Virus record (IMG/VR): IMGVR_UViG_3300025121_000033
Length of the DNA: 64,000 nucleotides
From: a virus
Lineage: Duplodnaviria > Heunggongvirae > Uroviricota > Caudoviricetes
Direction: 5' to 3' (one strand)
Position 1 is the first letter of the stretch. Each line of letters starts with the position of its first letter. The notes below the pieces were generated by a model. The model ran no database searches. It saw nothing but the letters and a program-made list of their open reading frames with translations, and had not been told where the DNA came from. Made by a program: the position numbers and the translations under genes. Of the stretch, positions 132 through 21,468 are shown piece after piece.

Positions 132-178
132 ATTATATCATATTTTTCTTTACTTGTCAAGTGGTGAGCTGTGGATAA
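132..178 (-). promoter_or_regulatory. Leftward sigma70-type promoter with an upstream DnaA-box-like 9-mer. Extended -10 TGaTATAAT (rc of 132-140), -35 TTGACA (rc of 155-160), box TTATCCACA (rc of 170-178).
   Basis: Read directly on the reverse strand: TTATCCACA, 9 nt, TTGACA, 17 nt, TATAAT. The layout matches the four + strand copies. Confidence 0.6.
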
Positions 179-179
179 G

Positions 180-209
180 TTGCCAAGCGCCACGTACTTA
201 TGATATAGT
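180..209 (+). promoter_or_regulatory. Rightward promoter: TTGCCA (180-185), 18-nt spacer, TGaTATAGT (201-209). It sits directly against the DnaA-box-like 9-mer at 170-178.
   Basis: A -35/-10 pair with extended TG lies upstream of ORF 238..543. It is arranged divergently to the leftward promoter. Confidence 0.4.
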
Positions 210-237
210 AGGTAAAACTTAAATTTAAATTATCAAT

Positions 238-543
238 ATGAACATCAATACACCAATGTCAAGCGAAGCCAATTTTTCGACCAAAGACATCACGCTCGCA
301 GCGACACTTAACACTTTGCTTTTTAAAATCTCCGGGATTAAATATCAGTATGAGGGCACGCGCCCTAAACCAGTCGGTTATTTTGAATTCCCGAACAGCG
401 AGAATCTTCAGAAAGCGATCACCGGATTTCTACGCGGAGAATTAGCGGTTGAACCAAGAAGTTTTATGATGCATTTACGCGCGCTAAAAGCTGAAGTTTC
501 AAACATCTATAAGAACCCAGACAGCCCCCTGCAACCGAAATAA
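238..543 (+). CDS. Hypothetical protein (101 aa).
   Basis: ORF followed by an intrinsic terminator. Confidence 0.5.
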   Translation: MNINTPMSSEANFSTKDITLAATLNTLLFKISGIKYQYEGTRPKPVGYFEFPNSENLQKAITGFLRGELAVEPRSFMMHLRALKAEVSNIYKNPDSPLQPK

Positions 544-555
544 AACCATTAAAAA

Positions 556-580
556 AGCGCCTTAAACGGCGTTTTTTTGT
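556..580 (+). terminator. Rho-independent terminator: stem agcgcc / ggcgtt, loop ttaaac, then T7.
   Basis: GC hairpin followed by a T-run immediately after the stop codon at 543. Confidence 0.6.
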
Positions 581-676
581 TGTTTTTTTAGGGGGTAAAA
601 AGTCGTTTTCTTGGCTAAGATAAGCAATAAAACAAAGGCGTTTTTGTCGTTACAAAATGTAAGCGTAGCTTACCAC

Positions 677-724
677 TTATCCACAGGGGGCATGCTTGAC
701 AAGTGAACGAAACTGTGTTATAAT
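677..724 (+). promoter_or_regulatory. Consensus promoter copy 1: DnaA-box TTATCCACA 677-685, -35 TTGACA 696-701, 17-nt spacer, extended -10 TGtTATAAT 716-724.
   Basis: Exact consensus hexamers with 17-bp spacing. Confidence 0.7.
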
Positions 725-917
725 AGATGCATCATATGAAATAAAAAGTACAATTTATGCCCAAAAATCCTCATCAAAACATTGAACAAAGAACCACACG
801 CGTAAAGCGTCTCTCATCCGTGAAATCGGGTGGTAGTGTTTTGTCCCTTTATGGGGTGAGGAGCTACTGGGCGAGATAATTTACGCGTGTTTTTTTTGTT
901 TAATTAATATATACATT

Positions 918-1322
918 ATGGATAAGACACATATTTTACTCGGAGTAAACTCTCTTATAGACTGGAAAATAAAGCATTTAATATACGAATTCGGGTTAAC
1001 AGGATATGGCGCTTTTAGAATGATAATTGAAATAATGGCCGTCCAGAAAAACCATAAAATCAATCTAAAAGGACTGTCGGAAATTCTTTTACCTTTTTTC
1101 CAAGGGCAAGAAATCACTTATTCAGCAGAAGATGGGATAGGTGGATATAAAAACGAAAGTGGACAATTTATCAGCATAGAAGATGTTGGCTGCTATGAAG
1201 TAAGTAAATTTAAAATAGAAGAAATGATCGATTTTATGATAGAAATTGGCTTATTTAACAGTAAAAACGGACGAATCTGGATCGACTCTTTAAGCGAGCA
1301 ACTTAACAAAAAAACAAATTAA
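918..1322 (+). CDS. Hypothetical protein (134 aa).
   Basis: First ORF downstream of promoter copy 1, after a structured leader of about 190 nt. Confidence 0.5.
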   Translation: MDKTHILLGVNSLIDWKIKHLIYEFGLTGYGAFRMIIEIMAVQKNHKINLKGLSEILLPFFQGQEITYSAEDGIGGYKNESGQFISIEDVGCYEVSKFKIEEMIDFMIEIGLFNSKNGRIWIDSLSEQLNKKTN

Positions 1323-1332
1323 CCACAAATAT

Positions 1333-2532
1333 ATGGCGCAAAAACGCATGATAGATAAACGGATATCCACGTCTGACACAGTGTCAGGATTAGATATAAA
1401 AGCACAGTTAATTTTCACGTGGTCTATACCGCACGCTGACGACTTTGGACTACTACCTTTCAACCAAAAAAGACTCAAAGCGGAGATAGTTCCACTGCTA
1501 GATTTAAGTCTGGAAGACTTTGGAATCCAAGTGGAATCCATCTTGGAGGCGAAATTGTGGGAGGTCTTCGAATGGCAAAATGAGAAGTTTTTTCGCATCC
1601 CAAATTTTACAAAATATCAAACACTAAAAAACGACAGAAAACCTGTTACGTTAGCCAAAAATATCACTAGCTGGAAAGATTGGAATCCAACTGGATTCCA
1701 ATCGGAATCCCAAGAGAAGCTAAGAGAAGCTAAGACAAGTAAAGCTAAAACTACCTTCTCTACATCGTCTGCAACCGCTAACGCGGTTGCATCCAATTCC
1801 GAGAAGGGTGAAATTCCGCCCCTTCGGGTCGGAACCTCACCCGTCCCTACCCCTCCGGGGGGGTTTTCTAAAACTTTAACCATCCAGGACGTGAAGACAG
1901 AAACTGATAGCGATGGGCCTTACGCGTCAGCGCCCAAAGCAAAGTCAAACAAAAATCCTGACGGCAGTTATGGCGACCCCGAAGTCAGCGCCATGATAAA
2001 CGCTATTCGCGCCAAGACCGGCGCCGACCGTCTTAACGACTCGGTTAAGTTCACGCGCAACATCGGGCAAAATCTAGTAAGCCTAAAAAACAAACTCGGC
2101 GCCGGGCAGTTCTGGTTTAGGTTCGATAAGCTTTACGCTGATGAGTTCCATCGCAAAAATTTTACAAAGCCGGAATATATCTACCGCGAGATCGGAGCGT
2201 ACGCCCCAAGCGACCCCCTCGAAGAAATCTGCCTTCGCCTAAAACGCATCATCTCTGGCTTCTGCTCTAACACCCCTGACGATGGCTTAAGTAAAATCAT
2301 CTCAGACAATGTGGGGGAAGCCAGAATAAAAAAACACAATTTGGAGAGCGTGATTAACTGCTACCGGTCGGCCAGCAATGGCATCGAATTCGAAGTGGAA
2401 AAATTACGCACACTCGCCACGCCTGAGTTCATAAAAAAACTAGACGACATTCTGGCAGAAGACGGCATCACAATTTACAACACAGATGTCGCTCCGCTTG
2501 GGAGAGGGTGCCTTATCAAAAAAAACACCTAA
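1333..2532 (+). CDS. Hypothetical protein (399 aa). It contains short internal nucleotide repeats (tggaatccaa and gagaagctaa, each twice).
   Basis: Long ORF followed by an A7-cggc-T9 / ttggctaa hairpin terminator region. Confidence 0.55.
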   Translation: MAQKRMIDKRISTSDTVSGLDIKAQLIFTWSIPHADDFGLLPFNQKRLKAEIVPLLDLSLEDFGIQVESILEAKLWEVFEWQNEKFFRIPNFTKYQTLKNDRKPVTLAKNITSWKDWNPTGFQSESQEKLREAKTSKAKTTFSTSSATANAVASNSEKGEIPPLRVGTSPVPTPPGGFSKTLTIQDVKTETDSDGPYASAPKAKSNKNPDGSYGDPEVSAMINAIRAKTGADRLNDSVKFTRNIGQNLVSLKNKLGAGQFWFRFDKLYADEFHRKNFTKPEYIYREIGAYAPSDPLEEICLRLKRIISGFCSNTPDDGLSKIISDNVGEARIKKHNLESVINCYRSASNGIEFEVEKLRTLATPEFIKKLDDILAEDGITIYNTDVAPLGRGCLIKKNT

Positions 2533-2728
2533 AAAAACGGCTTTTTTTTTCTTGGCTAATCTTAGCCAAATAAAAAATGGGTGGCTATGGTATGACCTGC
2601 CGAGGCCTAAACCCCTCTTAAAAAGTATACCGCAAGGCAAAAAATGACGTCCTGGAGGTGTTTTGAGACGCCCCAAGACCTTTCTGCCAAAAAAGGCAAA
2701 AAAAGCGAAATTTTAAGAATTCATTTTT

Positions 2729-2983
2729 ATGACACAAAAAGTTGTAAAAAAAATGTCCGAAGAGGCAAAAAAAAGATTGGCAAAAATCCCCAAACCAAGG
2801 TGCTCATTTTGCCGTGCTCCAAAGTCGTATGGAAACCCCATCGAAGCGTGCCAAAATTGTCACCAAAATTTTTGTTACGATCACATCTTCGGCGGACAAA
2901 TTTCTCAGAACAAATTTGATAACAAAATTTACAACGTTTGCGCTTCTTGTAAAAAGAAATTTGGGTATATTAGTTTGGATTAA
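2729..2983 (+). CDS. Cys-rich zinc-binding protein (84 aa; CxxC...CxxC...CxxC).
   Basis: ORF with four paired Cys/His motifs. Confidence 0.45.
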   Translation: MTQKVVKKMSEEAKKRLAKIPKPRCSFCRAPKSYGNPIEACQNCHQNFCYDHIFGGQISQNKFDNKIYNVCASCKKKFGYISLD

Positions 2984-2987
2984 AAAC

Positions 2988-3034
2988 TTATCCACAGCTT
3001 GACACTTGACAAGTGAACGAAAGTGTGATATAAT
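2988..3034 (+). promoter_or_regulatory. Consensus promoter copy 2: box 2988-2996, tandem TTGACA at 2999-3004 and 3006-3011, 17-nt spacer, TGaTATAAT 3026-3034.
   Basis: Exact consensus. The predicted transcription start falls about 3041, essentially on the ATG at 3037/3043, so the mRNA is leaderless. Confidence 0.7.
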
Positions 3035-3036
3035 AT

Positions 3037-3576
3037 ATGCGTATGAAAAAAGGAATGCGCTTCAAAATCCAAATCCGCTCCAACTGCCTTATATGTAATG
3101 GCGTTATTACGGTAAATCGCTTTCGCACGTTCTGTAGTAAGAAGTGCCGCGATCGCGCCAGCAACATCAAATACGCTGATATGCATGCCGAGTGGCAGCG
3201 CAAAAGAAATGACGCTGTTAATTCTAAGCCATCCAAGAACAAAGTGAAGTGCCTTGATTGTGGAAGATATTATGTACAAGTCGGATCGCACGTGATCGCT
3301 CGCCACGGCTATGAAACAGCGCGTGAGTATCGCGAACAGAATGGTTTAGATGTAAAGAAGGGCACAGTGCCGACTTGGTATCGCAAGATGAAGGGTGAAC
3401 AAGCCATTGAGAACGAGACATATAAGAATATCATTTTCTCCGGCGCTCCGTTCCGATTTAAAAAAGGGCAGTTTGGCCCTGGTCAGTACAATCGCAGTGA
3501 AGAGACAATCGCGCGGTTAAAAAACTTAAGCCGTGTCCACAAAAAGAATATCTGCTATCGCGGTGATAAAAAATAA
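3037..3576 (+). CDS. Ros/MucR-family zinc-finger DNA-binding protein (179 aa; likely start at 3043).
   Basis: KCLDCGRYYVQVGSHVIARHGYETAREYREQNGL matches the Ros/MucR C-x2-C-x9-H-x4-H finger and the following (T)PEEYRE(K)WxL helix motif. Confidence 0.65.
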   Translation: MRMKKGMRFKIQIRSNCLICNGVITVNRFRTFCSKKCRDRASNIKYADMHAEWQRKRNDAVNSKPSKNKVKCLDCGRYYVQVGSHVIARHGYETAREYREQNGLDVKKGTVPTWYRKMKGEQAIENETYKNIIFSGAPFRFKKGQFGPGQYNRSEETIARLKNLSRVHKKNICYRGDKK

Positions 3577-3578
3577 TT

Positions 3579-3788
3579 ATGCGTTTCAACGGTAAAGAGA
3601 CAAATTCAAACGGCGTGGAAATATTTTCTTTCTCACTCGGCATAGAAGAATTGAAACTATTGCGCGGAATATTGCGTGATAGCCACGAGCGCATGCCGAA
3701 GATAACCGAAACCATGCAGGTGCGCAGTCGTTTAAGCAACATGCGCTCTAATGTAGAAAAAACATTATCATCTTATGAAAAAATTTGA
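3579..3788 (+). CDS. Hypothetical small protein (69 aa).
   Basis: ORF in tight gene packing. It overlaps the next start by 14 nt. Confidence 0.35.
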   Translation: MRFNGKETNSNGVEIFSFSLGIEELKLLRGILRDSHERMPKITETMQVRSRLSNMRSNVEKTLSSYEKI

Positions 3789-4293
3789 AAAGTATACTAC
3801 CACACTGGGGATGAACTGTGTCGTAAACGTGCTGGTCGACGATGAGGACGCTTGGATACTAGAACAAAAACCATGGCATTTTGCTTACGGTCAGAAGAAG
3901 CTACCTTTCATAACCGTGATGGTTGATCCTGTAAAACAGCATAGGAGAATGCTCCATCATATAGTTCTTTGCGGTGAGAACAAGTGCTCTACCGCATGTG
4001 GTATAATCCACATTAATGGCGACACCACCGACAATCGTAAATCAAATTTAAAAAAAATTAGTTTCGCGTTTAGCCAAACGATGCGCGCTAATAGAACTGA
4101 CACAAAGAGTGGATACCGCGGGGTATATTATAGAGCTGACAACAAAAATCTTCCTTGGATTGCGGTTGTGAAATGTGAAGGAAAGAGGCAGCACCTTGGC
4201 GCTTATGCTACAAAAGAGGAAGCGGCGCAGATAGTGGATGATTTCAGGCGCGAAATATACGGTGATAAAATCCCTTTAAATTTAAAAAAATAA
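3775..4293 (+). CDS. HNH endonuclease with a C-terminal AP2 DNA-binding domain (homing-endonuclease type).
   Basis: HINGDTTDNRKSNL is an HNH motif. SGYRGVYY...WIAVVKCEGKRQHLGAYATKEEAAQIVD is an AP2 domain. Confidence 0.7.
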   Translation: MKKFEKYTTTLGMNCVVNVLVDDEDAWILEQKPWHFAYGQKKLPFITVMVDPVKQHRRMLHHIVLCGENKCSTACGIIHINGDTTDNRKSNLKKISFAFSQTMRANRTDTKSGYRGVYYRADNKNLPWIAVVKCEGKRQHLGAYATKEEAAQIVDDFRREIYGDKIPLNLKK

Positions 4294-4296
4294 TAT

Positions 4297-4461
4297 ATGA
4301 ACGAAAAAGAATACAAATTGGCGTTAGAGTTAATCGAAGTTCTGATGCTACGTGACCCGGAGCCAGGTGAGTATGACGGTCAAGTCCTTGGCCTCTTGGC
4401 TGACTTGGCAACGCGCTATGAAAACAAACACCCGAAAGTTTTAAAGCGTAATAAAAAATAA
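4297..4461 (+). CDS. Small hypothetical protein (54 aa) that fills a gap and was not in the >=60-aa ORF track.
   Basis: Own translation: MNEKEYKLALELIEVLMLRDPEPGEYDGQVLGLLADLATRYENKHPKVLKRNKK. It starts and ends at typical TAATATATG / TAATTTTATG junctions. Confidence 0.35.
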   Translation: MNEKEYKLALELIEVLMLRDPEPGEYDGQVLGLLADLATRYENKHPKVLKRNKK

Positions 4462-4465
4462 TTTT

Positions 4466-4855
4466 ATGCCGAAGAAAACTAAACTACGTGATGAGCGGTT
4501 GGGCAAGCAGCAGAGCGACAAGACCATTATTGTAAAACCAAAATTTGCCTATGATGATAAGCCGTGGTTTGTTAACAATGATGACAAAAAGATAGAGCGA
4601 TTGGATATATATCAATATGATATAGGATACGGCGCGGGGTGCGGAGAAAATTGTTGTGAAGAGTGTGAGAGAAAAAATGGATGTTGGATAATAATTCGCT
4701 ACCATGGTGTGAATAAGCGGGGAGACGAACAAGATCTAGATGAATGCGAACTGTTCTCTACTAAAGAAGAGGCGATTGAGTCAATAAGAAAATCATTCAC
4801 GAGAGACGCTGAGTATAAAATCGCGGAATACCTAAGTTCTAAAAAGGAAAAATAA
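4466..4855 (+). CDS. Hypothetical Cys-rich protein (129 aa).
   Basis: ORF containing GCGENCCEECERKNGC. Confidence 0.5.
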   Translation: MPKKTKLRDERLGKQQSDKTIIVKPKFAYDDKPWFVNNDDKKIERLDIYQYDIGYGAGCGENCCEECERKNGCWIIIRYHGVNKRGDEQDLDECELFSTKEEAIESIRKSFTRDAEYKIAEYLSSKKEK

Positions 4856-4859
4856 TTTT

Positions 4860-5009
4860 ATGCCAAAACTCACATGGGCTGATCTCGCTAAAGGCGGAAA
4901 AGCGTTGACGCTAAAACAAATTAACGAATTGATAAAATTGTGTGACGCTGAGTCGGAAGAATGGTCTCACTTTAAAAAAGTTTTACTGAAATTAAAAAAG
5001 AAAAAATAA
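4860..5009 (+). CDS. Small hypothetical protein (49 aa).
   Basis: Own translation MPKLTWADLAKGGKALTLKQINELIKLCDAESEEWSHFKKVLLKLKKKK. It abuts the flanking genes exactly. Confidence 0.3.
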   Translation: MPKLTWADLAKGGKALTLKQINELIKLCDAESEEWSHFKKVLLKLKKKK

Positions 5010-5011
5010 TT

Positions 5012-5524
5012 ATGCGTGCTGATCTCGAAAAGAAATTAATTTTTATTGACTGTGAGGCTAACGGCAGATGTCCGGGGCGTGGGCTCATGACTGAGTTCGG
5101 CGCAGTGGCATACTCCACGCGCGAAACTTTCCATGGGAGTTTGGTAGAATGCGACAACACGTCCGCTCAAGTAGAATTCCCTTACGATAAATTGTTCGAT
5201 CTGGTTAAAACAAAAAAGGTAATGGAAGATTTCGCGGCGTGGCTCATTACAATTGTTGGGACTGAAAAGCCGGTTTTCGTTTCTGACAATCCGGCATTCG
5301 ATTGGCAGTGGATAAATTATTATTTTTGGAACTACACTGAAATCGGAAATCCATTCGGACATTCGGCGCGAAGAATTTCAGACTTCTACGCTGGGCTTAA
5401 AAATGATTTCGCTGATAGCCAGCGCTGGAAGAAATTAAGAAAAACAAATCACGACCATAATCCAGTACATGACGCTCTTGGCAATGTCGAAGCCTTTGAG
5501 CGCATGCTAAATGGGGAAAGATAA
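5012..5524 (+). CDS. DEDDh-type 3'-5' exonuclease (DnaQ / RNase T-like).
   Basis: Exo I motif LIFIDCEANG, Exo II motif FVSDNPAFDWQWI, Exo III motif HNPVHDALGNVEAF. Confidence 0.6.
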   Translation: MRADLEKKLIFIDCEANGRCPGRGLMTEFGAVAYSTRETFHGSLVECDNTSAQVEFPYDKLFDLVKTKKVMEDFAAWLITIVGTEKPVFVSDNPAFDWQWINYYFWNYTEIGNPFGHSARRISDFYAGLKNDFADSQRWKKLRKTNHDHNPVHDALGNVEAFERMLNGER

Positions 5525-5536
5525 TTAAATAAAAAT

Positions 5537-5812: not shown

Positions 5813-5815
5813 ATT

Positions 5816-5911: not shown

Positions 5912-5915
5912 ATCT

Positions 5916-6755: not shown

Positions 6756-6758
6756 AAT

Positions 6759-7256: not shown

Positions 7257-7259
7257 ATT

Positions 7260-7649: not shown

Positions 7650-7667
7650 TTAATTAATTTAAAAAAT

Positions 7668-9377: not shown

Positions 9378-9406
9378 TTTACAAAATTACACATCTGTGT
9401 TATAAT
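9378..9406 (+). promoter_or_regulatory. Sigma70-type promoter: TTTACA (9378-9383), 17-nt spacer, TGTGtTATAAT (9396-9406). No DnaA box.
   Basis: Preceded by hairpin 9328-9346 (ctccgc-ttaaac-gcggag) and followed by gene 9438. Confidence 0.5.
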
Positions 9407-13904: not shown

Positions 13905-15890
13905 ATGTTCGGCACCGCAGACTTCCTCAAACAATTTAAAGATTTCTGCATTCAGACTTTTGATGACCGTGAATTCAATGAGAAGAAAGACCCTTCTCTT
14001 ATTACGGTTGGGCCACCGCGCAATTATGATTTGAATAAATTACAGAAACTGAATAGCGCTGGCGCCGGGATATTCTTCACGGTGAACCAATTCCCCGGTG
14101 GCAAGCGTTCTAAGGAACTATGCGCCGGTGTGAACGCCTGGTTTAGCGAATGCGACACGCTCTCAATCGAACAGCAAATGGATATGCTTCTAAAGTGCCC
14201 ACTGATACCGTCCATGATCGTGCGTAGTAAGAAAAGCTTACACGCCTATTGGATGGCCAAAGACGGTACTGAGAAAAACTTTGTGCGCATCCAACAGGGA
14301 TTAATCAAATACTTCCAAGGCGATCCAGCGATGAAAGACATTTCGCGTGTTCTTAGAATCCCCGGATACTACCACAACAAAACAGCCGAGCCATTCATGG
14401 TTGAAATAATCCATGTTGCTGAAGGATTGGCGTATACTGAAAAAGAAATGATGGAAGCGTTTCCTTGGGAAGCGCCGGTTGACAGTGTACAGTCAACTGT
14501 CAACTCTAAACCATTCTCTAATGCCGGAGCGGATATTACTTTCTGGGACGCGATTAGTCGTGTCAGTAATAAAGAAGCGCTGACGCGTATGTCTGGTAGC
14601 GCGATTGTTAATAGCGACATCTTATCTTTCCGAAAACGCGCGACAGGCGGAGAGTATATTGATGTAAACGGTAAGCCGGCTGATGCTTGGCTTGACGGTA
14701 ACGGTGCTATTGGTAGCGGTAAAGGCGGAGGCCCAACGTGGATACAGTGGCTGGGCTTTTACGGCTGGAATAAATCTGACATCGCAAAGTGGGCGAAAGA
14801 CAATTTGGCTGACTTAATACCAACGCATTTAGTTGAAGATAGGCGCGCAGTGACATTCTCACGCTACCAGCCGCCACTAAAAAAAACTGAAAATGCGGTT
14901 GGGAACTTTAAGATTGATGTCACTACCGCCAAAGACCATGTTAAGAGTGTCACTGACTCCTTCTTAACTCCGCCTTCGCCATTTACTTGGGGCACAACTG
15001 AGTTGGATAAGATTATGCCAGCGGTTGAAGAGGGGCATTATGCGATCATATTTGGTCAACAGGGAAGTGGCAAGACTACATTCGCTTTTAACATGGCGAT
15101 GGAGAATGCAAAAAAGGTTCCGAATGTTTTTTTCTTAACGCTTGAAATGAGTAAAGATCAGTTGTTGCGCCGTTACGCGCGTGATCGCGCTGGTGTCACA
15201 AAAGAGCAATATCGTAATAGAAATTTTGATACCACCATTGCTGAACAGTTCTTAAAAGATTTAGGAGATTTAAAACTGGTCGGCATCGACAAAGGCGAAC
15301 TTTACGACGTAAAGAAGTTGGAAGAAATGATTACTACGTTCGGCGTTAAGATGTTGTATATAGACAACTTAAATAAAGTCAAAGGAGCTGGCAAAAACGA
15401 ATTAGAACAGACCCAAGGTGTTTCTGAAGGGATCTTAAATCTTACGAGACAATACAAGATACCGATTGTGCTAATCCATCACGCTAACAAACCGTTAAAC
15501 GAACGAGCGAGTAAGGAAACAACCGAAGTGCCTAAACACGCGAAATTCCGTGGCATGTCTGGGATGCGCGGGACTAATAAAACTGCTGATGATGCTGATA
15601 TAATCGTTGAGTGCGCGCGTAACATAGTAGAAAAATCACAAGCGCCGATTCTGATGGCGGATGACATGCGGCAATCAGCGATGACTTCATTGTCAGTTTA
15701 TAAAGACCGTGAATTTGACTCGCGCTTTACTACTAATGTATTCTACTACCGTGGGAATTTCTACGATAATTGGGAGGTGCCGAAGATGATCGCGCATAAA
15801 GATATGATTAATAAATCAAACCAAATCAACCAAGCGAACATCGACGCGCAGAAAATCGCGGATGAGTTTGGTGGGGAAGTTGTAAATTAA
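13905..15890 (+). CDS. Primase (AEP / prim-pol-like N-terminus) fused to a DnaB-family replicative helicase.
   Basis: N-terminus has KSLHAYW and RVLRIPGYYHNK. C-terminus has Walker A GQQGSGKTTFAFNMA, then LEMS, LYIDNLNK and IVLIHHANK. Confidence 0.7.
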   Translation: MFGTADFLKQFKDFCIQTFDDREFNEKKDPSLITVGPPRNYDLNKLQKLNSAGAGIFFTVNQFPGGKRSKELCAGVNAWFSECDTLSIEQQMDMLLKCPLIPSMIVRSKKSLHAYWMAKDGTEKNFVRIQQGLIKYFQGDPAMKDISRVLRIPGYYHNKTAEPFMVEIIHVAEGLAYTEKEMMEAFPWEAPVDSVQSTVNSKPFSNAGADITFWDAISRVSNKEALTRMSGSAIVNSDILSFRKRATGGEYIDVNGKPADAWLDGNGAIGSGKGGGPTWIQWLGFYGWNKSDIAKWAKDNLADLIPTHLVEDRRAVTFSRYQPPLKKTENAVGNFKIDVTTAKDHVKSVTDSFLTPPSPFTWGTTELDKIMPAVEEGHYAIIFGQQGSGKTTFAFNMAMENAKKVPNVFFLTLEMSKDQLLRRYARDRAGVTKEQYRNRNFDTTIAEQFLKDLGDLKLVGIDKGELYDVKKLEEMITTFGVKMLYIDNLNKVKGAGKNELEQTQGVSEGILNLTRQYKIPIVLIHHANKPLNERASKETTEVPKHAKFRGMSGMRGTNKTADDADIIVECARNIVEKSQAPILMADDMRQSAMTSLSVYKDREFDSRFTTNVFYYRGNFYDNWEVPKMIAHKDMINKSNQINQANIDAQKIADEFGGEVVN

Positions 15891-15896
15891 AATTAT

Positions 15897-16031: not shown

Positions 16032-16032
16032 T

Positions 16033-16398: not shown

Positions 16399-16399
16399 T

Positions 16400-16696
16400 A
16401 TGTTTGATAGACACTTCGACAAACACGCAGGGTGGCTAAGCTTTATTTCTGGTGCCGGGTTTGAAAGAGCTGTTGAAGTCATCGAGACGCTGAAAAGAGA
16501 GATGAGCCGTTCTTTAAGAAAGAGTGGTAAAGATAAAGCGTGGTTGATTAGAGCTATAAGATTGGAGCATCTGCAAATCAGAAAGCACCAAAAGATAGCG
16601 ATGAAATACCTCCAACAGTTGGAAGATAAATTACTTGACGATGAAGTAAAAGAAGAGTTGCGGAGAAACTTTAAAGACACTTATAAAGTAAAATGA
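16400..16696 (+). CDS. Hypothetical protein (98 aa).
   Basis: ORF. Confidence 0.45.
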   Translation: MFDRHFDKHAGWLSFISGAGFERAVEVIETLKREMSRSLRKSGKDKAWLIRAIRLEHLQIRKHQKIAMKYLQQLEDKLLDDEVKEELRRNFKDTYKVK

Positions 16697-16697
16697 T

Positions 16698-16934
16698 ATG
16701 GCTAATCAAGATAACTTAAGAGCCGCAATGGAAGAAATGGGAATTGAACCTGCGAAAATTGATGAGATTCTGGCTTCTGTTTCTGACGAAGAAGCGGCCG
16801 CGAAAGCCAATCTTAATCCGGATGATTATAAGGCGATGATAGAGACTTTACGCTTAGCTTCTTATAGAGAGACGGATTGGCGTAAAAAAGCCGCGATTGC
16901 CGCTCGAATTATTAGCCTTGGTTTGGACGAATAG
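16698..16934 (+). CDS. Hypothetical protein (78 aa).
   Basis: ORF. Confidence 0.45.
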   Translation: MANQDNLRAAMEEMGIEPAKIDEILASVSDEEAAAKANLNPDDYKAMIETLRLASYRETDWRKKAAIAARIISLGLDE

Positions 16935-16981
16935 TTATCCACAGCTTGACACTTGACAAGTGAGCAAAAGTATGGTATAAT
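16935..16981 (+). promoter_or_regulatory. Consensus promoter copy 3: box 16935-16943, TTGACA 16953-16958, 17-nt spacer, TGgTATAAT 16973-16981.
   Basis: Exact match to the promoter family. Confidence 0.7.
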
Positions 16982-17114
16982 ATATGTACGCTAAAATAAG
17001 AAATTGAGAGAGGATTTTTGGATAAATCCTTGAATAAATTAGTGGTGGGTTATTTTTGGGAGGATATCTGAGGAGATACGCCCTCGGACTCCTCTCTCAG
17101 TTTCTAATAAAATT

Positions 17115-18149
17115 ATGGTTGATACTAAAAAAGACAAGATTGAAGAGGCGGTTAAGCTCCTTAATAAAAAATACGGCGCTAAAACGATTATCAAGATGGC
17201 GAGTATTGATAAGATTAAAGTTGAAGCGATTCCGACTGGTAGTTACTCTTTAGACAGAGTATTCGGCTGCGGGGGTATACCGCGAGGGCGGATAGTGGAA
17301 ATGCACGGGAATGAGGGATCTGGCAAGAGCACGTTAGCGCTTTTCATCGCGAGTCAAGTCCAGAAGAAAGGCGGTAATGTTTGTTGGATTGACGCTGAAC
17401 ATGCCTTTGATGCTGATTACGCTAAAAAGATTGGCGTAAATTCTAAACAGCTTTTCTTGTCTCAACCAGTCTATGGGGAAGAAGCGCTCGATATTGTGGA
17501 TAAGATGGCTCTTTCGTCTGATATTGATTTAATTGTACTCGATTCGGTGGCGGCTTTAGTGCCAAAACGCGAGTTTGAGGGTAATCTGACTGACAATGAG
17601 ATGGCGCAAGGCGCCAGGATGATGTCTAAAGCCATGAGGATGCTCTCTGGTAACATTTCGCGCACTAAAACGGCAGTTCTGTTTATCAACCAATTACGAG
17701 AGAAAATAGGGGTATATTGGGGCAATAAGAACACTACGCCGGGTGGAAAGGCTCTTAAATTCTTCGCTTCAGTGCGAATAGAGGTTAAGAAAGGCCGTTC
17801 GATCAAAGAGGGCGAAGAAGTAGTGGGTAATAAGATTATCTTTTGCGCTGTGAAGAACAAGGTAGGCATGCCGTTCCGGATGGGTCAATTAGACTTAATT
17901 TACGGAGTAGGTGTGGATATCTTTGGGGATATCTTGGACTCAGCTGTGGATATCGGTATTATTTCTTTGGAAAAGACCAATTATCTTTATGGAGTAGAGC
18001 CACTGGGGGCAAGCAGGCTAAAAGCAATTGAGCGCCTGCGCTCTGACTCAAAGATAATGTTAAAAATAATTGAAGAATTAAAGAACGCGCCATATGCCAA
18101 AAGTATTGAAACCGAAACCCAAGGAGAAGGTGAAAGCCCAGAAATTTAA
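17115..18149 (+). CDS. recA: RecA recombinase.
   Basis: GIPRGRIVEMHGNEGSGKSTLAL...WIDAEHAFD...LIVLDSVAAL are canonical RecA motifs. Confidence 0.9.
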   Translation: MVDTKKDKIEEAVKLLNKKYGAKTIIKMASIDKIKVEAIPTGSYSLDRVFGCGGIPRGRIVEMHGNEGSGKSTLALFIASQVQKKGGNVCWIDAEHAFDADYAKKIGVNSKQLFLSQPVYGEEALDIVDKMALSSDIDLIVLDSVAALVPKREFEGNLTDNEMAQGARMMSKAMRMLSGNISRTKTAVLFINQLREKIGVYWGNKNTTPGGKALKFFASVRIEVKKGRSIKEGEEVVGNKIIFCAVKNKVGMPFRMGQLDLIYGVGVDIFGDILDSAVDIGIISLEKTNYLYGVEPLGASRLKAIERLRSDSKIMLKIIEELKNAPYAKSIETETQGEGESPEI

Positions 18150-18158
18150 GTGTAGAGT

Positions 18159-18344
18159 ATGCGGGAAAAATGGCAAGTAAAAAATATTCATAAGAAATGT
18201 AAATTGTGCGGATTTAATATCTACGCAAAGTCTGGGAATAGAATATATTGCGATGACTGTCAGGCGGTGGCTTATAAAATAATACAACATTTCGCCGATC
18301 GAAGATATAAAACATTACAAAAAGAAAAGAGGAAAAAGCATTAG
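18159..18344 (+). CDS. Zinc-ribbon protein (CKLCG...CDDC).
   Basis: ORF. Confidence 0.4.
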   Translation: MREKWQVKNIHKKCKLCGFNIYAKSGNRIYCDDCQAVAYKIIQHFADRRYKTLQKEKRKKH

Positions 18345-18351
18345 CGCAATT

Positions 18352-18840
18352 ATGATTTTCTGCGGAATAGATCCTGGTTTGTCCGGGGCCATCGCGATGA
18401 TTACTGAGAGTAACGAAATTGTTGGCAAATTTAAGATGCCTACTATTAAGAACGTCAAAGGCAAGAACGAAATTGATTTAACTGAGGTTGTAAAGATTTT
18501 TCAAAATTACGAAATAATGTTCGCCATATTGGAAAGAGTCCACGCCATGCCGAAAAACGGCGCTGTCTCCATGTTCACGTTCGGGCGTAGTTTCGGGATG
18601 ATAGAAGGTGTTATCGCAGCGCTTAAGATCCCTTACGCGCTTGTGAGCCCACAGACTTGGCAGAAAGAGATTTTAAAAGACTTTAACAGAGACGACGATA
18701 GTAAACAAAGCAGTATCCTCCATGCAAAAAGGATGTTCCCTAAGGATGATTTTAGACCAACAGAGAGAGCGAAGGTGGACGACAGTAATATCACTGACGC
18801 TGTGAACATTGCTTTATACGCTAAACTAAAATTTAATTAA
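18352..18840 (+). CDS. RuvC-family Holliday-junction resolvase.
   Basis: N-terminal CGIDPGLSGAIAM and the general RuvC fold signature. Confidence 0.6.
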   Translation: MIFCGIDPGLSGAIAMITESNEIVGKFKMPTIKNVKGKNEIDLTEVVKIFQNYEIMFAILERVHAMPKNGAVSMFTFGRSFGMIEGVIAALKIPYALVSPQTWQKEILKDFNRDDDSKQSSILHAKRMFPKDDFRPTERAKVDDSNITDAVNIALYAKLKFN

Positions 18841-18921
18841 TATTTAAGGGAAGTTATAAGCAAGTTACTTCTTGGATGAAAAACACTTACTTAATTTTTC
18901 TCCCTTTTTAAAATAAAACAT

Positions 18922-20385
18922 ATGAAATTTCGATCGGGGAAATCAGTCGGTCAAAAAACTGTCAACTTAGCAGGCGGAGAAGCATTCAAGCAATCTCCTG
19001 AACTTGAATTGGTGTCTCTGCTTTTGACTTCGTTTGTAAAAGATAAATTTTACGAATCAGGCAATGACCAATTAGACAGATTGGCGTTGATCGTTAATAA
19101 ATTAGCTGATAAGAAATTCGCCGGTCAAGCCGCGATTTATGCGCGTAACGAATTTGGCATGCGCAGTATCACCCACGCTTTGATTGGCGAGATTGTCCAT
19201 ATTGTTAAAGGCCAAGAGTGGGTGAAGAACGCGGTAACGCGCACTGTGAAGCGCCCCGATGATATGCTTGAGATGTTGGGCTACTTTGGCTCAAAACATT
19301 CTGATAGTGCCATTCCGAATTCTTTAAAGAAAGGGCTGCGTTTGGCGGTAGGCAAATTCGATGCTTACCAGCTGACTAAATACAAAAGCTCCAGATCGGA
19401 TGTAAAAATGGTAGACTTGTTTAACCTCGTCCACCCTAAACCGGTGGATAGTAGGGCTGCTGATGTTTATTCCAAATTAATTAATGGCGAATTAAAAAAC
19501 ACTGAGACTTGGGAAGCTAAACTTTCCAGTGCCGGCCAAGAAGTAAAAGAAATGGCCGATGGTGCTGATAAGGAAGAGAAGCTGTCTGAGTTAAAAGAGA
19601 GTGCATGGCAAGAATTGTTAGAGAGTAAAAAGTTGGGCTACTTCGCTTTATTGCGCAACTTGCGCAATATCAGTCAGCAAGCGCCTAAACTTATTCCGCT
19701 TGCGATTGAGCAACTCCTTAACAAAGAAGCCATTCAGAAATCCCTGGTAATGCCTTTCCGCTTCCAAACGGCTTACAAAGAACTGGATGAGGCCGGTGTA
19801 AGTCGAAAGTTATTGGATGCGCTAAACGATGCGACCGAACTGTCACTCTCTAATGTGCCGAAATTCGCTGGTAAGACTTTGATAGTCCTCGACACCAGCG
19901 GTTCGATGCAGGGCGATCCGTTAGACATTGGTTCATTATTTGGCGCGGTGTTGTTTAAAGCAAACGCTGACGCAGATTTAATGACGTTTGATGACGACGC
20001 TCGGTATGAGAAAGGCATCAGCGGTAAAGATTCGCTCTTGACGATCGCTGAGAAGTTGCGCAAACACGACGGTGGCTCAACCAACTTCCACGATATATTC
20101 ATTAAGGCTAAAGAGAAGTATGATCGGATCGTGATTCTGTCTGATATGCAAGGGTGGAGCGGTGGCTACGACAACCCTACTGGAGATTTGCAAACTTATA
20201 ATAAAAAGTTTGGTGCCGATCCGTTCATTTATTCGTTTGATTTAGAAGGACACGGTACGCTCCAATTCCCTGAGAATAAGATTTTCTGTATTGCTGGTTG
20301 GTCTGATAAAATCTTAGGGGTAATGGCGCTTCTGGAAGAAGACAAAAACGCGTTAGTCAATAAAATAAAAGCAATAGTACTTTAA
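18922..20385 (+). CDS. rsr: Ro60 orthologue (Rsr): TROVE domain plus C-terminal vWA domain.
   Basis: ALLRNL, PFRFQTAYKEL, MIDAS motif LIVLDTSGSMQG, GGSTNF and IVILSDMQGWSGG align with human Ro60 ALLRNLGKM, HPFHILIALETY, LLAVDVSASMNQ, GGTDCS and IVFTDNETFAGG. Confidence 0.8.
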   Translation: MKFRSGKSVGQKTVNLAGGEAFKQSPELELVSLLLTSFVKDKFYESGNDQLDRLALIVNKLADKKFAGQAAIYARNEFGMRSITHALIGEIVHIVKGQEWVKNAVTRTVKRPDDMLEMLGYFGSKHSDSAIPNSLKKGLRLAVGKFDAYQLTKYKSSRSDVKMVDLFNLVHPKPVDSRAADVYSKLINGELKNTETWEAKLSSAGQEVKEMADGADKEEKLSELKESAWQELLESKKLGYFALLRNLRNISQQAPKLIPLAIEQLLNKEAIQKSLVMPFRFQTAYKELDEAGVSRKLLDALNDATELSLSNVPKFAGKTLIVLDTSGSMQGDPLDIGSLFGAVLFKANADADLMTFDDDARYEKGISGKDSLLTIAEKLRKHDGGSTNFHDIFIKAKEKYDRIVILSDMQGWSGGYDNPTGDLQTYNKKFGADPFIYSFDLEGHGTLQFPENKIFCIAGWSDKILGVMALLEEDKNALVNKIKAIVL

Positions 20386-20388
20386 AAT

Positions 20389-20630
20389 TTACGGAGGCAG
20401 CTAAGCCAGGATTTCCTCGAATTACTTTCATAAAGTTATTCTAACGCTTCGGCGTAAGAACTCTTATTGTTCTATGGTAGGTATCAAAAGACCCCGATCG
20501 ATTGATATCTCCTTACCGGAAAGTCGCCCGAAAGGGTGACCGACCAAAGTGAAGCGTGCAGAGCAATCTGTATCGCTTCGAGCACAGGTAGCGCGATAGC
20601 TCCAGTCCTGACTGCCTTTCTCCTCCGTAA
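20389..20630 (+). ncRNA. Structured non-coding RNA domain closed by a 9-bp terminal helix (20389-20397 / 20622-30). It contains C(UUCG)G and GNRA hairpins and is a candidate Y-RNA-like module.
   Basis: No ORF. ttacggagg pairs with cctccgtaa. Hairpins at 20444-20455 (acgc-UUCG-gcgt) and 20523-20540 (gtcgccc-GAAA-gggtgac). Confidence 0.3.
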
Positions 20631-20641
20631 AAATCGATTTT

Positions 20642-20767
20642 CTGGGTAGCGATAGAAAAGTTACTTCGACTTATAATCGAGTGGTCGCTTGTTCGAGTCA
20701 AGCCGGCGCCTTCGGGAGCCGTAGCTCAGTTGGTAGAGCACTTTTACTTTTCTAGATTTTCTCCCAG
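20642..20767 (+). ncRNA. YrlA-like candidate Y RNA. A permuted tRNA-like module (T-arm 20687-20703; acceptor-like stem closed by a UUCG loop 20704-20721; D-arm 20722-20739) sits on a long stem (20642-61 / 20746-67).
   Basis: GGAGCCG-UA-GCUC-AGUUGGUA-GAGC is a canonical tRNA 5' half. GCTTG-TTCGAGT-CAAGC is a canonical T-arm and lies immediately upstream. There is no anticodon arm. The position is right next to rsr. Confidence 0.45.
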
Positions 20768-20781
20768 TTTAAAAATAAATT

Positions 20782-21168
20782 ATGTTTAGACGAATTAAAT
20801 ATTTTATCCAGAGAGGGCGGCGCGGATATAGCGACGAAGATCTTTGGGATTTCGACAGTTATTTATCTAGTATGATTGCTCCGGCGCTTAGGCATCTCGC
20901 GAAGAAGTCATTCGGGTGCCCAAGCGACTTATATGATAAAGATAAGAAAAATGATGAGTGCCATCGGTGGAAGGAGATATTAGAAGAAATGGCACAAGGA
21001 TTTGACGCCGTGCGTTCGTTAAAAGGGACAGGTATATTACATTATGAGAAGCAGGATAATGGCGCTTTAAAGATTACGGTAGATGAGAATCGCCAAAAAA
21101 ACTTGTCTGATAAATTTAATAAAGGGATGCAGTTATTTAGCCAATATTTTTTAGGACTTTGGGACTAA
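20782..21168 (+). CDS. Hypothetical protein (128 aa).
   Basis: ORF. Confidence 0.5.
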   Translation: MFRRIKYFIQRGRRGYSDEDLWDFDSYLSSMIAPALRHLAKKSFGCPSDLYDKDKKNDECHRWKEILEEMAQGFDAVRSLKGTGILHYEKQDNGALKITVDENRQKNLSDKFNKGMQLFSQYFLGLWD

Positions 21169-21169
21169 T

Positions 21170-21436
21170 ATGGTAGTTGTTAACACAAAACAAGATCTAA
21201 AGGAAATTGATAGCGCCTACGCACAAGCAGTGGCGCATTTTAAACCCGTGTTTGGCAACACGCGGCACATCCAAATTGTCGAGTCGCTCAACGAACTGGG
21301 TAAATTAGAAAGAGAGCATGCTAATAAGAAAAAACAAGCTGAGGGTATCACGGCCTTAGAAAAGAAGATCGCCTTTCTCAAAAGCCAAATCACTTGGCTG
21401 AAGCAGGAAGACGATAAAAACTTATCCACAGCTTAG
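21170..21436 (+). CDS. Hypothetical coiled-coil protein (88 aa).
   Basis: ORF. Confidence 0.45.
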   Translation: MVVVNTKQDLKEIDSAYAQAVAHFKPVFGNTRHIQIVESLNELGKLEREHANKKKQAEGITALEKKIAFLKSQITWLKQEDDKNLSTA

Positions 21437-21468
21437 CACTTGACAAGTAAAGAAAAATGTGATATAAT
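21422..21468 (+). promoter_or_regulatory. Consensus promoter copy 4: box 21422-21430, TTGACA 21440-21445, 17-nt spacer, TGTGaTATAAT 21458-21468.
   Basis: Exact match to the promoter family. It overlaps the 3' end of the preceding ORF. Confidence 0.7.

What the first reader, a model, noticed from the sequence alone, without database searches (positions are those of the whole stretch)
132..21468. Five copies of a composite module: a perfect DnaA-box 9-mer fused at fixed distance to a textbook sigma70 promoter
Copies are at 170-137 (- strand), 677-724, 2988-3034, 16935-16981 and 21422-21468. Each has TTATCCACA(G), then 9-10 nt, TTGACA, a 17-nt spacer, and TGnTATAAT. TTATCCACA is the highest-affinity E. 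coli DnaA-box consensus. Its invariant phasing one helical turn upstream of the -35 implies a transcription factor. That factor is either host DnaA or a phage mimic, and it would couple early transcription to DnaA status. Another possibility is that the promoters double as DnaA-loading or replication-origin elements. A sixth promoter (9378-9406) lacks the box.
Basis: seen in the sequence. Interest (0 to 1): 0.6.

Follow-up and report, generated by a model that had tools for sequence, protein, structure and literature searches.

The report
Phage early promoters carrying DnaA boxes
All five perfect host-type promoters of an uncultivated ~89 kb groundwater phage carry a perfect binding site for the host replication initiator DnaA about one DNA turn upstream, a layout like the E. 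coli nrdAB promoter that also recurs in many unrelated uncultivated phages and in Patescibacteria genomes, which suggests that these phages tie early transcription to host DnaA.

Summary
Five exact modules, TTATCCACA(G)-N9/10-TTGACA-N17(TGn)-TATAAT, lie at 178-132(-), 677-724, 2988-3034, 16935-16981 and 21422-21468. None of 100 shuffles gave any. Every perfect-consensus promoter in the ~83 kb of this ~89.3 kb circular phage genome that I could read carries the box.

The module is not private to this phage. The same composite occurs in unrelated viral contigs, in metagenome contigs and in bacterial MAGs, 18 of 32 of them labelled Patescibacteria. The box-to-(-35) distance peaks sharply at 9-10 nt. 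It peaks in one orientation only, and a second peak has the box abutting the -35. The bases I left unspecified recover AGTTATCCACAG, the 12-mer of E. coli oriC box R4. A composition-matched shuffled 9-mer gives 4 viral hits against 105.

The E. coli nrdAB promoter has the same layout: AGTTATCCACA-aag-TTATGCAC|TTGCAA-17-TATCTT.

I found no DnaA homologue in the phage, no box cluster, and a separate candidate origin made of iterons.

Best reading: these are nrdAB-type promoters that respond to host DnaA. The direction of the effect is unresolved. The origin and phage-mimic readings are not supported. The element is a new variant of a known kind, in a context I could not find described in the open-access papers I searched.

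The parts
132..178 (-). Module P1: DnaA box 178-170, 9-nt gap, -35 TTGACA 160-155, 17-nt spacer with TGa, -10 TATAAT 137-132. It points leftward, out of the window, into an operon that encodes a MerR-like protein, an SNF2 helicase and an HD protein.
   Evidence: The leftward operon is seen in the near-identical contig L206.
180..209 (+). Weaker divergent promoter (TTGCCA-18-TATAGT, with TG) for the DUF5659 gene 238-543. The P1 box lies 1 nt upstream of its -35, in the reverse orientation, so one box serves two promoters.
677..724 (+). Module P2: box 677-685, 10-nt gap, -35 696-701, -10 719-724. It precedes a structured ~175-nt leader and the replication-initiation genes 918-2532.
2988..3034 (+). 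Module P3: box 2988-2996, 9-nt gap holding a second TTGACA (2999-3004), -35 3006-3011, -10 3029-3034. It heads the gene string 3043 to about 9319.
9378..9406 (+). Near-consensus promoter without a box (TTTACA-17-TATAAT, with TG).
16935..16981 (+). Module P4: box 16935-16943, starting right after the stop codon of ORF 16698-16934. The 9-nt gap holds a second TTGACA. -35 16953-16958, -10 16976-16981. It lies upstream of the recA-like gene.
17495..17503 (-). Solitary exact TTATCCACA inside the recA-like ORF, with no promoter next to it. It is probably a chance or coding-driven occurrence.
   Evidence: One extra box is within the chance expectation of 0.49.
21422..21468 (+). Module P5: box 21422-21430, overlapping the 3' end of ORF 21170-21436. 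9-nt gap, -35 21440-21445, -10 21463-21468. It heads the genes 21499-27912, which include sbcCD.

Best explanation
The five modules are strong sigma70-type promoters (extended -10). They drive the early and replication/recombination genes of an uncultivated ~89.3 kb circular phage.

Each carries one consensus high-affinity DnaA box at about -53 to -45, oriented 5'-TTATCCACA-3' toward the promoter. This assumes a start site 7 nt after the -10.

Host DnaA, not a phage protein, most likely docks there, on the same face of the helix as RNA polymerase, and modulates initiation. This is the arrangement of the E. coli nrdAB promoter.

By analogy with nrdAB:
- DnaA on the high-affinity box would stabilise RNA polymerase and so stimulate or gate early transcription.
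- At high DnaA-ATP, filling of the weak box-like sequence next to the -35 (nnnnnCAC|TTGACA) could repress.

The phage appears to copy a promoter class that is common in its likely host group, Patescibacteria (CPR bacteria).

Shown: the anatomy, the phasing, the orientation, the specificity of the motif, and its wide occurrence.
Inferred: DnaA binding, contact with RNA polymerase, the sign of the effect, and the host.
For: 1. Five of five perfect-consensus promoters carry the box, against a chance expectation of 0. No further boxes or consensus promoters occur in the 20 kb flanking the window.

2. Within the module the box is invariant, while the 9-10 nt between box and -35 diverge (GCTCACCAC, GGGGGCATGC, GCTTGACAC, GCTTAGCAC). 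Conservation stops 2 nt upstream of the box.

3. The exact composite is found in 15 viral contigs that share almost no proteins with this phage. It is also found in 32 genome contigs, some of them clearly chromosomal: next to tmRNA and tRNA-Asp, upstream of a 23S rRNA gene, and on contigs of 156-231 kb.

4. Spacing histograms:
- Viral contigs, forward box: gaps of 8, 9 and 10 nt give 5, 8 and 5 unique promoters. The reverse box at the same gaps gives 1, 0 and 2.
- Metagenome contigs (8-mer TTATCCAC): 18 and 15 promoters at 10-11 nt, which equals a 9-mer gap of 9-10. A second peak of 7 is at 0, and a small rise appears at 19-20. Chi-square against a uniform distribution gives p=2e-15.
- Non-seed boxes in the fetched loci show the same offsets.

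5. Bases I did not specify recover the DnaA box and its context:
- Position 9 is A in 36 of 42 cases.
- The flanks are A(-2) in 34 of 42, G(-1) in 28 of 42 and G(+10) in 20 of 42. Together this gives AGTTATCCACAG, identical to oriC box R4.
- With positions 3 and 5 left free, TTATCCACA makes up 13 of 25 unique hits.

6. A shuffled 9-mer control gives 4 viral stretches, against 105 for the forward box and 71 for the reverse box.

7. The E. coli nrdAB promoter, read from NC_000913.3, is AGTTATCCACA-aag-TTATGCAC|TTGCAA-17-TATCTT. The review PMC8203912 states that DnaA at its high-affinity boxes activates by stabilising RNA polymerase, and that high DnaA-ATP represses.

8. Relatives of the phage (RecA 55-69% identical, primase-helicase 37%) keep a box or a near-box at their TTGACAAGT promoters. 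In L212, whose leftward SNF2/MerR operon matches that of P1, three promoters read TTATCCAC|TTGACAAGT. That is 10 bp, one helical turn, closer than in the window.

9. No DnaA homologue is found in ~83 kb of the phage.
Against: - No binding or expression data exist. Everything rests on sequence and comparison.
- The core promoters are perfect consensus and should need no activator. The precedent with a box close to the -35 in the same orientation (E. coli mioC) is repression. The sign of the effect is therefore open.
- In relatives the distance is not fixed (2 and 23 nt in L211). More distant relatives (L344, L345, L210) have similar promoters with no box. The box is therefore dispensable for promoter function as such.
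- A single R1/R4-type box binds DnaA-ATP and DnaA-ADP alike (established knowledge). On its own it would not sense the nucleotide state of DnaA.
- The host is unknown. RecA and peptide deformylase searches gave no taxonomic pointer.
- The collection scans required a perfect promoter, so they say nothing about weaker promoters.
- About 6 kb of the genome was never seen.
Confidence: 0.6

Rival explanations
1. The element is bound by a protein other than DnaA, either a phage-encoded early regulator or another host factor. Alternatively, it is an upstream promoter element read directly by RNA polymerase (alpha-CTD or sigma), and only happens to look like a DnaA box.
For: Binding is untested. The first gene after P3 (3043-3576) has a weak Ros/MucR zinc-finger match (E=1.4e-4, below Pfam's cut-off). 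A MerR-like gene sits in the P1 operon. So the phage does carry candidate DNA-binding proteins. The box occupies the position of an UP element (-40 to -60).
Against: The composite occurs in phages that share almost no proteins with this one, and in bacterial chromosomes. A lineage-specific phage protein cannot explain that.

The recovered 12-mer AGTTATCCACAG equals oriC box R4, and the preferences at positions 3, 5 and 9 follow the DnaA-box consensus.

UP elements are A/T-rich (established knowledge). This segment is not (for example TTATCCACAGGGGGCATGC).
Confidence: 0.15
2. The boxes act mainly as a DnaA sponge. They multiply with phage DNA replication, soak up host DnaA and shut off host chromosome initiation. 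Their position next to promoters is secondary.
For: There are six consensus boxes per genome against 0.5 expected. Titration of DnaA by consensus boxes on multicopy DNA is established for E. coli (PMC5835720). This effect would occur anyway if DnaA binds, so it can coexist with the best explanation.
Against: Titration needs neither a fixed orientation nor a fixed 9-10 nt distance to a -35, yet both are sharply selected in hundreds of kilobases of independent sequence. The same composite sits at chromosomal host promoters. There is no datA-like cluster.
Confidence: 0.1
3. The modules are DnaA-loading sites or replication origins activated by transcription.
For: Three of the five modules lie within 3 kb of the replication-initiation genes 918-2532. 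DnaA-stimulated transcriptional activation of ori-lambda is a precedent (PMC8203912).
Against: Each site has only one box. There is no box cluster and no adjacent AT-rich unwinding element. Two modules are 14-19 kb away from the initiator genes.

The phage has its own initiator-like proteins, a primase-helicase, and candidate iterons (TGGAATCCA, five copies, at 1520-1540 and 1680-1711) inside ORF 1333-2532.

In chromosomes and other phages the composite sits at ordinary promoters.
Confidence: 0.05
4. The box has no function of its own. One promoter cassette that happened to contain it was copied five times within the genome.
For: The copies share spacer and initial transcribed sequence (68-93% identity from -35 to +15). 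This points to common descent or gene conversion.
Against: The segment between box and -35 has diverged while the box has not. Relatives with different spacers keep a box. Unrelated sequences show the same composite, with unrelated gaps and spacers.
Confidence: 0.05

Closest known systems
E. coli nrdAB promoter (DnaA-regulated ribonucleotide reductase operon)
   Same: A forward-oriented consensus box with the same flank (AGTTATCCACA) lies about one helical turn upstream of the -35. A second box abuts the -35 (TTATGCAC|TTGCAA), as in relative L212 (TTATCCAC|TTGACAAGT). DnaA at the high-affinity boxes is reported to stabilise RNA polymerase, and high DnaA-ATP to repress (PMC8203912).
   Different: In nrdAB the distal gap is 11 nt, against 9-10 here. 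The proximal box is a real box there, whereas here only a CAC remnant remains. The nrdAB core promoter is weak (TTGCAA/TATCTT), whereas here it is perfect consensus with an extended -10. nrdAB is a single chromosomal locus, whereas here there are five copies heading the early operons of a phage.
E. coli mioC promoter
   Same: A forward-oriented DnaA box (TTTTCCACAG) lies immediately upstream of the probable -35 (the promoter assignment is mine). DnaA represses in proportion to box affinity (PMC5835720). It resembles the 'abutting' class seen in L212, L211 and the metagenome peak at 0.
   Different: The box is 2 nt from the -35 rather than 9-10. It is not a perfect consensus box, and the core promoter is weak.
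E. coli dnaA P1/P2 autoregulation
   Same: A consensus DnaA box in a promoter region is used for transcriptional control by DnaA (PMC5835720).
   Different: The box is in the opposite orientation relative to transcription (TGTGGATAA). It lies between two promoters, with extra DnaA-ATP sites, and the effect is purely repressive.
Phage lambda pR / ori-lambda stimulation by DnaA
   Same: It is the known case in which host DnaA acts as a transcription factor on a phage promoter, with a proposed contact to RNA polymerase (PMC8203912).
   Different: In lambda the DnaA sites lie downstream of pR (my own knowledge, not checked here). The effect concerns one promoter tied to origin activation, not a set of early promoters with an upstream phased box.
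Monomeric or upstream-bound regulators that depend on helical phase (MarA/SoxS class I and II promoters; phi29 p4)
   Same: These involve an asymmetric site, a fixed orientation, and positions either abutting the -35 or one turn upstream. For p4, the same contact activates weak promoters and represses strong ones. This comes from my own knowledge and was not checked here.
   Different: The proteins are unrelated. This is only an analogy for how a phased upstream site could act at a consensus promoter.

Membership tests
High-affinity (R1/R4-type) DnaA box | 9-mer TTATCCACA (relaxed consensus TTWTNCACA) | tested here: met
   There are six exact matches, five of them in modules.
High-affinity (R1/R4-type) DnaA box | Flanking context as in oriC R1 and R4 (G-TTATCCACA-G) | tested here: met
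   All five modules have G at +10, and the base at -1 is C (four copies) or G (one copy). R1 is ttGTTATCCACAGgg and R4 is gaGTTATCCACAGta in NC_000913.3. The consensus of independent composites is AGTTATCCACAG.
High-affinity (R1/R4-type) DnaA box | Bound by DnaA domain IV | not testable with these tools
   This needs EMSA or footprinting.
Sigma70-type promoter with extended -10 | TTGACA, 17-bp spacer, TGn, TATAAT | tested here: met
   All five modules match 12 of 12 positions and have TG.
Sigma70-type promoter with extended -10 | Mapped transcription start site | not testable with these tools
   No RNA data are available. The gene orientation downstream is consistent.
nrdAB-type DnaA-regulated promoter | Forward-oriented high-affinity box about one helical turn upstream of the -35 | tested here: met
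   The gap is 9-10 nt here and 11 nt in nrdAB. The same offset is the population-wide peak.
nrdAB-type DnaA-regulated promoter | Second, weaker box abutting the -35 | tested here: inconclusive
   The window has CTCACCAC|T, CTTGACAC|T and CTTAGCAC|T, each matching 5 of 8 box positions, and none in the copy at 677. Relative L212 has a full TTATCCAC|TTGACA.
nrdAB-type DnaA-regulated promoter | Transcription changes with DnaA level or nucleotide state | not testable with these tools
   This needs reporter assays or in vitro transcription.
DnaA-dependent replication origin | Cluster of several DnaA boxes within a few hundred bp, next to an AT-rich unwinding element | tested here: not met
   Each site has one box, and the nearest neighbours are 500 bp to 14 kb apart. 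Candidate iterons lie elsewhere.
UP element | A/T-rich sequence between -40 and -60 | tested here: not met
   The segment is TTATCCACAG followed by a G/C-containing gap, for example GGGGGCATGC.
datA-like DnaA titration locus | Tight cluster of boxes acting independently of promoters | tested here: not met
   The boxes are dispersed and each is phased to a promoter.
Phage-encoded DnaA homologue ('mimic') | A phage ORF with similarity to DnaA, in particular to its DNA-binding domain IV | tested here: not met
   tblastn and phmmer with E. coli DnaA against the window plus L206 and L215 give nothing better than E=1. 40 of the ~68 window ORFs were scanned with Pfam and none matched Bac_DnaA_C. A non-homologous mimic cannot be excluded.

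The most novel reading that the evidence does not exclude
In Patescibacteria (CPR bacteria), which have few regulators, DnaA may be a common promoter-proximal transcription factor with a fixed docking geometry: AGTTATCCACAG placed 9-10 nt, or 0 nt, upstream of the -35.

Their phages would copy this promoter class so that the whole early programme is gated by host DnaA. As phage genomes multiply, the added boxes would titrate DnaA. That would both switch early transcription off, acting as a copy-number timer, and block host chromosome initiation.

The motif would then also be a sequence signature for linking uncultivated phages to CPR hosts.
Probability: 0.2. Interest if true: 0.8.

Novelty: new variant of a known kind. 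Interest (0 to 1): 0.55.

Why it matters
DnaA-controlled promoters are known from a handful of chromosomal genes and from lambda pR. Here one phage puts the same phased DnaA box on every consensus early promoter. The same geometry turns up repeatedly in uncultivated phages and in Patescibacteria genomes.

If DnaA really binds, several things follow:
- It would show a general way for phages to read, or to drain, the host's replication-initiation state.
- It would point to DnaA as a widely used transcription factor in a huge uncultivated bacterial group.
- It would give a simple motif for linking phages to hosts.
- It would provide a compact, portable DnaA-responsive promoter.

All of this can be tested with standard assays, because the DnaA box is nearly universal.

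Tried and rejected
- **Chance.** Rejected by shuffles and by a shuffled-9-mer control scan.
- **Mobile promoter cassette shared between phages.** Rejected, because gaps and spacers differ completely between contigs.
- **Origin of replication.** Rejected for lack of a box cluster and because a separate initiator-plus-iteron region exists.
- **Phage DnaA homologue.** None found.
- **UP element.** Rejected on composition.
- **Close relatives in INPHARED.** None at the DNA level. There are only remote protein matches to phages of many different hosts.
- **Host assignment through RecA and peptide deformylase homologues, cluster names and contig records.** This led nowhere. The best hits are unnamed metagenome sequences.
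- **Regulon logic in the genes downstream of the 32 genome hits.** The genes are heterogeneous and were not pursued.
- **Fetching the last ~6 kb of the genome from IMG/VR.** The attempt failed, and one end protein is not on record.
- **Literature.** Searches for a DnaA box in phage early promoters or in CPR promoters found nothing relevant.
- **Rfam.** No known RNA family matches the P2 leader.

Full report
**1. The observation**

TTATCCACA occurs six times in the 64 kb window, against 0.49 expected; no shuffle out of 100 reaches six. The full composite TTATCCACA-N8-12-TTGACA-N16-18-TATAAT occurs five times against an expectation of zero. The copies are at 178-132 on the minus strand and at 677-724, 2988-3034, 16935-16981 and 21422-21468 on the plus strand.

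All five copies have G after the 9-mer, a 17-nt spacer and TGn before TATAAT. The distance from the box to the -35 is 9 nt in four copies and 10 nt in the copy at 677. If transcription starts 7 nt after the -10, the box spans about -53 to -45.

This includes the box-less promoter at 9378-9406 (TTTACA-17-TATAAT).

In an alignment of the copies, conservation begins 2 nt before the box. The box is invariant, the 9-10 nt between box and -35 differ (GCTCACCAC, GGGGGCATGC, GCTTGACAC twice, GCTTAGCAC), and the core from -35 to +15 is 68-93% identical.

A sixth exact box, at 17495-17503(-), lies inside the recA-like ORF with no promoter nearby. It is within chance expectation.

**2. What the window is**

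It is a phage. Plus-strand genes from 1 to 27.9 kb encode:
- a Lin1244_N protein and an initiator-like protein (918-2532);
- a primase-helicase (13905-15890);
- RecA (17115-18149);
- a Ro60/TROVE protein (18922-20385);
- SbcCD (22669-26329).

Minus-strand genes from 27.9 to 64 kb encode an SU10-type capsid protein, an adaptor and very large virion proteins.

Identical proteins lie on metagenome contigs of up to 89,431 bp. Among the sources is the sample ANAN16-1_SAMN03842448, which I take to be the Rifle aquifer (my own reading of the sample name, not checked). The coordinates of that k141 contig imply a circular genome of about 89,290 bp.

The 20 kb flanking the window hold no further box and no further consensus promoter. 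About 6 kb was never seen. So all five perfect-consensus promoters in the ~83 kb surveyed carry the box.

They head the leftward MerR/SNF2/HD operon (P1), the replication-initiation genes (P2), a long string of small genes (P3), recA (P4) and the sbcCD block (P5).

INPHARED holds no DNA-level relative and only remote protein relatives.

**3. The module is not private to this phage**

The exact composite with a gap of 9-11 nt occurs in 15 IMG/VR contigs that share almost no proteins with the window. It also occurs in 32 contigs of the one-genome-per-species collection.

Eighteen of those 32 are labelled Patescibacteria (Magasanik-, Moran-, Kuenen- and Saccharibacteria and others). At least three contigs labelled 'Gammaproteobacteria' carry the same tmRNA / tRNA-Asp locus as the Magasanikbacteria hits, so they are probably mislabelled. 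Five hits are Clostridia or Bacillota.

Some hits are clearly chromosomal: contigs of 156-231 kb, the tmRNA locus, and a site about 700 nt upstream of a 23S rRNA gene.

From general knowledge, Patescibacteria make up a small share of the bases in such a collection. This looks like a strong enrichment, but I could not compute the baseline. Eight hits are also one orthologous locus.

**4. Phasing and orientation**

I scanned viral contigs with the gap left open from 0 to 30 nt.

- The forward box gave 5, 8 and 5 unique promoters at gaps of 8, 9 and 10.
- It also gave a separate cluster at 15-18. That cluster is dominated by one family of ~14 kb contigs, which also have a reverse box inside the promoter spacer.
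- The reverse box gave 1, 0 and 2 at gaps of 8-10.

An independent scan of metagenome contigs used the 8-mer TTATCCAC. It was truncated at 120 stretches, which reduced to 111 clustered promoters. It gave 9, 18 and 15 promoters at 9, 10 and 11 nt, which equals 9-mer gaps of 8-10. It gave 7 at 0 (box abutting the -35), a small rise at 19-20, and 0-4 in most other bins. Chi-square against a uniform distribution gives p=2e-15. The peaks are about one helical turn apart.

Among 207 perfect boxes in the fetched loci that were not search seeds, 11 have a promoter at a gap of 8-11. Almost none have one at other gaps, apart from the gap-16 family.

**5. Identity of the motif**

Bases that the searches left free recover the DnaA box and its context.

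- Position 9 is A in 36 of 42 peak promoters. The flanks give A-G before the box and G after it, so the consensus is AGTTATCCACAG.
- In E. coli oriC, read from NC_000913.3, R1 is ttGTTATCCACAGgg and R4 is gAGTTATCCACAGt.
- With positions 3 and 5 free, TTATCCACA makes up 13 of 25 unique hits. 20 of 25 fit TTWTNCACA.
- A composition-matched shuffled 9-mer gives 4 viral stretches. The forward box gives 105 and the reverse box 71.

The phage encodes no detectable DnaA homologue.

The simplest reading is that host DnaA is the ligand.

**6. Relatives of the phage**

I found relatives through the primase-helicase (37% identity) and RecA (55-69% identity).

- L209 has TTATCCACA-9-TTGACA-17-TAATAT.
- L213 has TTATCAACA-8-TTGACAAGT just upstream of recA.
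- L211 has ATATCCACA-2-, TCATCCACA-23- and CTGTCCACA-9-TTGACAAGT.
- L212 has three promoters reading TTATCCAC|TTGACAAGT. One of them heads the leftward SNF2/MerR operon that corresponds to P1.

So the box is retained in this lineage. Its distance is constant within a genome but not between genomes. The window and L212 differ by 10 bp, which is one helical turn.

More distant relatives (L344, L345, L210) have TTGACA-17-TGnTATACT promoters without a box.

P3 and P4 contain TTGACAC-TTGACAAGT. This suggests that the 9-nt gap arose from a 7-bp duplication of an L211-like arrangement with a 2-nt gap. That is an inference.

**7. Comparison with known systems**

The E. coli nrdAB promoter reads AGTTATCCACA-aag-TTATGCAC|TTGCAA-17-TATCTT. 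That is a forward consensus box 11 nt from the -35 plus a second box abutting it. This is the same architecture as the window module plus the L212 form.

According to the review PMC8203912, DnaA at the high-affinity nrdAB boxes activates by stabilising RNA polymerase, while high DnaA-ATP represses. The same review notes DnaA-stimulated transcription at ori-lambda through a proposed contact with the beta subunit.

The mioC promoter has TTTTCCACAgg directly before its probable -35 (the promoter assignment is mine). It is repressed in proportion to box affinity (PMC5835720).

The dnaA promoter box is in the opposite orientation.

**8. How it most likely works**

Shown: the composite is specific, oriented and phased, and it matches the best DnaA box.

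Inferred: host DnaA docks at -53 to -45 on the polymerase face of the helix and modulates initiation, as at nrdAB.

Arguments for stimulation or gating:
- The site lies outside the core promoter.
- It shows strict orientation and helical periodicity, which is typical of contact with polymerase rather than occlusion.

Arguments for repression:
- The cores are perfect consensus.
- The mioC and dnaA precedents are repressive.

I lean slightly towards an nrdAB-like dual response but regard the sign as open.

Titration of DnaA by replicating phage DNA would follow automatically if DnaA binds, and it may be part of the function.

The origin reading is not supported. Each site has a single box, the sites are dispersed, and a separate candidate origin exists: five TGGAATCCA repeats at 1520-1540 and 1680-1711, inside the initiator-like ORF.

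**9. Novelty**

DnaA-regulated promoters are a known kind, and the geometry matches nrdAB.

What I could not find described is twofold: a phage whose consensus early promoters all carry a phased DnaA box, and the wide recurrence of this geometry in uncultivated phages and in Patescibacteria.

I rate it a new variant of a known kind. I put confidence at about 0.6 that DnaA is the ligand and that the element regulates transcription.

Noticed in passing
window 20641-20771 (+), next to 18922-20385: The 'tRNA-Ile(TAT)' called by ARAGORN is the tRNA-like part of a YrlA-like Y RNA. The Rfam RF02553 match is full length, scores 43 bits (below the gathering score of 69) and has E=1.8e-8 in a local search. 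It lies 256 nt downstream of the phage Ro60/TROVE gene. This is a phage-borne Ro60 plus Y RNA pair.
   Followed up: partly
window 731-905 (+): The transcript from P2 starts with an untranslated stretch of ~175 nt. Its last ~125 nt fold into a long closed multi-branch hairpin that ends in a T-run (-53 kcal/mol, z=-5.1, 0 of 200 shuffles). No Rfam family matches it. It could be an sRNA, an attenuator upstream of the replication genes, or a second Y-like RNA.
   Followed up: partly
window 1520-1540 and 1680-1711, inside ORF 1333-2532: Five copies of TGGAATCCA/TGGATTCCA, in two groups 160 bp apart, lie inside the initiator-like gene (weak PHROG 'replication initiation protein' matches). The gene before it has a Lin1244_N domain. 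This is a candidate iteron-type origin.
   Followed up: partly
window 170-209: The P1 box is shared with a divergent weaker promoter (TTGCCA-18-TATAGT) for the DUF5659 gene 238-543. For that promoter the box is reverse-oriented and 1 nt from the -35. A DUF5659 gene sits at the same divergent junction in relative L212 and also occurs in L210.
   Followed up: no
window 2999-3011 and 16946-16958: P3 and P4 carry a tandem TTGACAC-TTGACAAGT. The upstream copy has no matching -10. This may be the trace of a 7-bp duplication that moved the box from 2 nt to 9 nt from the -35.
   Followed up: no
window 3037-3045: The ATG at 3043 is only 2 nt downstream of the predicted P3 start site (about 3041), so this mRNA may be leaderless. 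The encoded protein (3043-3576) has a weak Ros/MucR zinc-finger match (E=1.4e-4, below the cut-off). It is a candidate early regulator.
   Followed up: no
L049, L050, L086-L090, L113 and about 30 similar ~14 kb IMG/VR contigs of sample 3300045988: This is a large family with TTATCCACA-aattatcaaca-...-TTGACAaatTGTGGATAAtttgATATAAT. Boxes lie upstream of a consensus promoter, and a reverse box lies inside its spacer. That is a repressor-type DnaA arrangement, distinct from the window's.
   Followed up: no
L017, L026, L027, L028, L038, L039, L044, L046 (Magasanikbacteria and MAGs labelled 'Gammaproteobacteria'): These share an orthologous chromosomal locus between tmRNA and tRNA-Asp that contains the module. 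In most of them the box is half of a palindrome, TTGGATAAtTTATCCAca. It is followed by a ~180-nt leader and a small Cys-rich membrane-like ORF. The taxon labels of the 'Gammaproteobacteria' bins are probably wrong.
   Followed up: partly
L047 1572-1619 and 2324-5966: In a Magasanikiibacteriota MAG the module lies about 700 nt upstream of the 23S rRNA gene.
   Followed up: no
L036 and L010: A contig binned as 'Candidatus Fermentibacteria' is the same 35,898-bp sequence as an IMG/VR viral contig, with an identical module and flanks. It is probably a phage contig inside a MAG.
   Followed up: no
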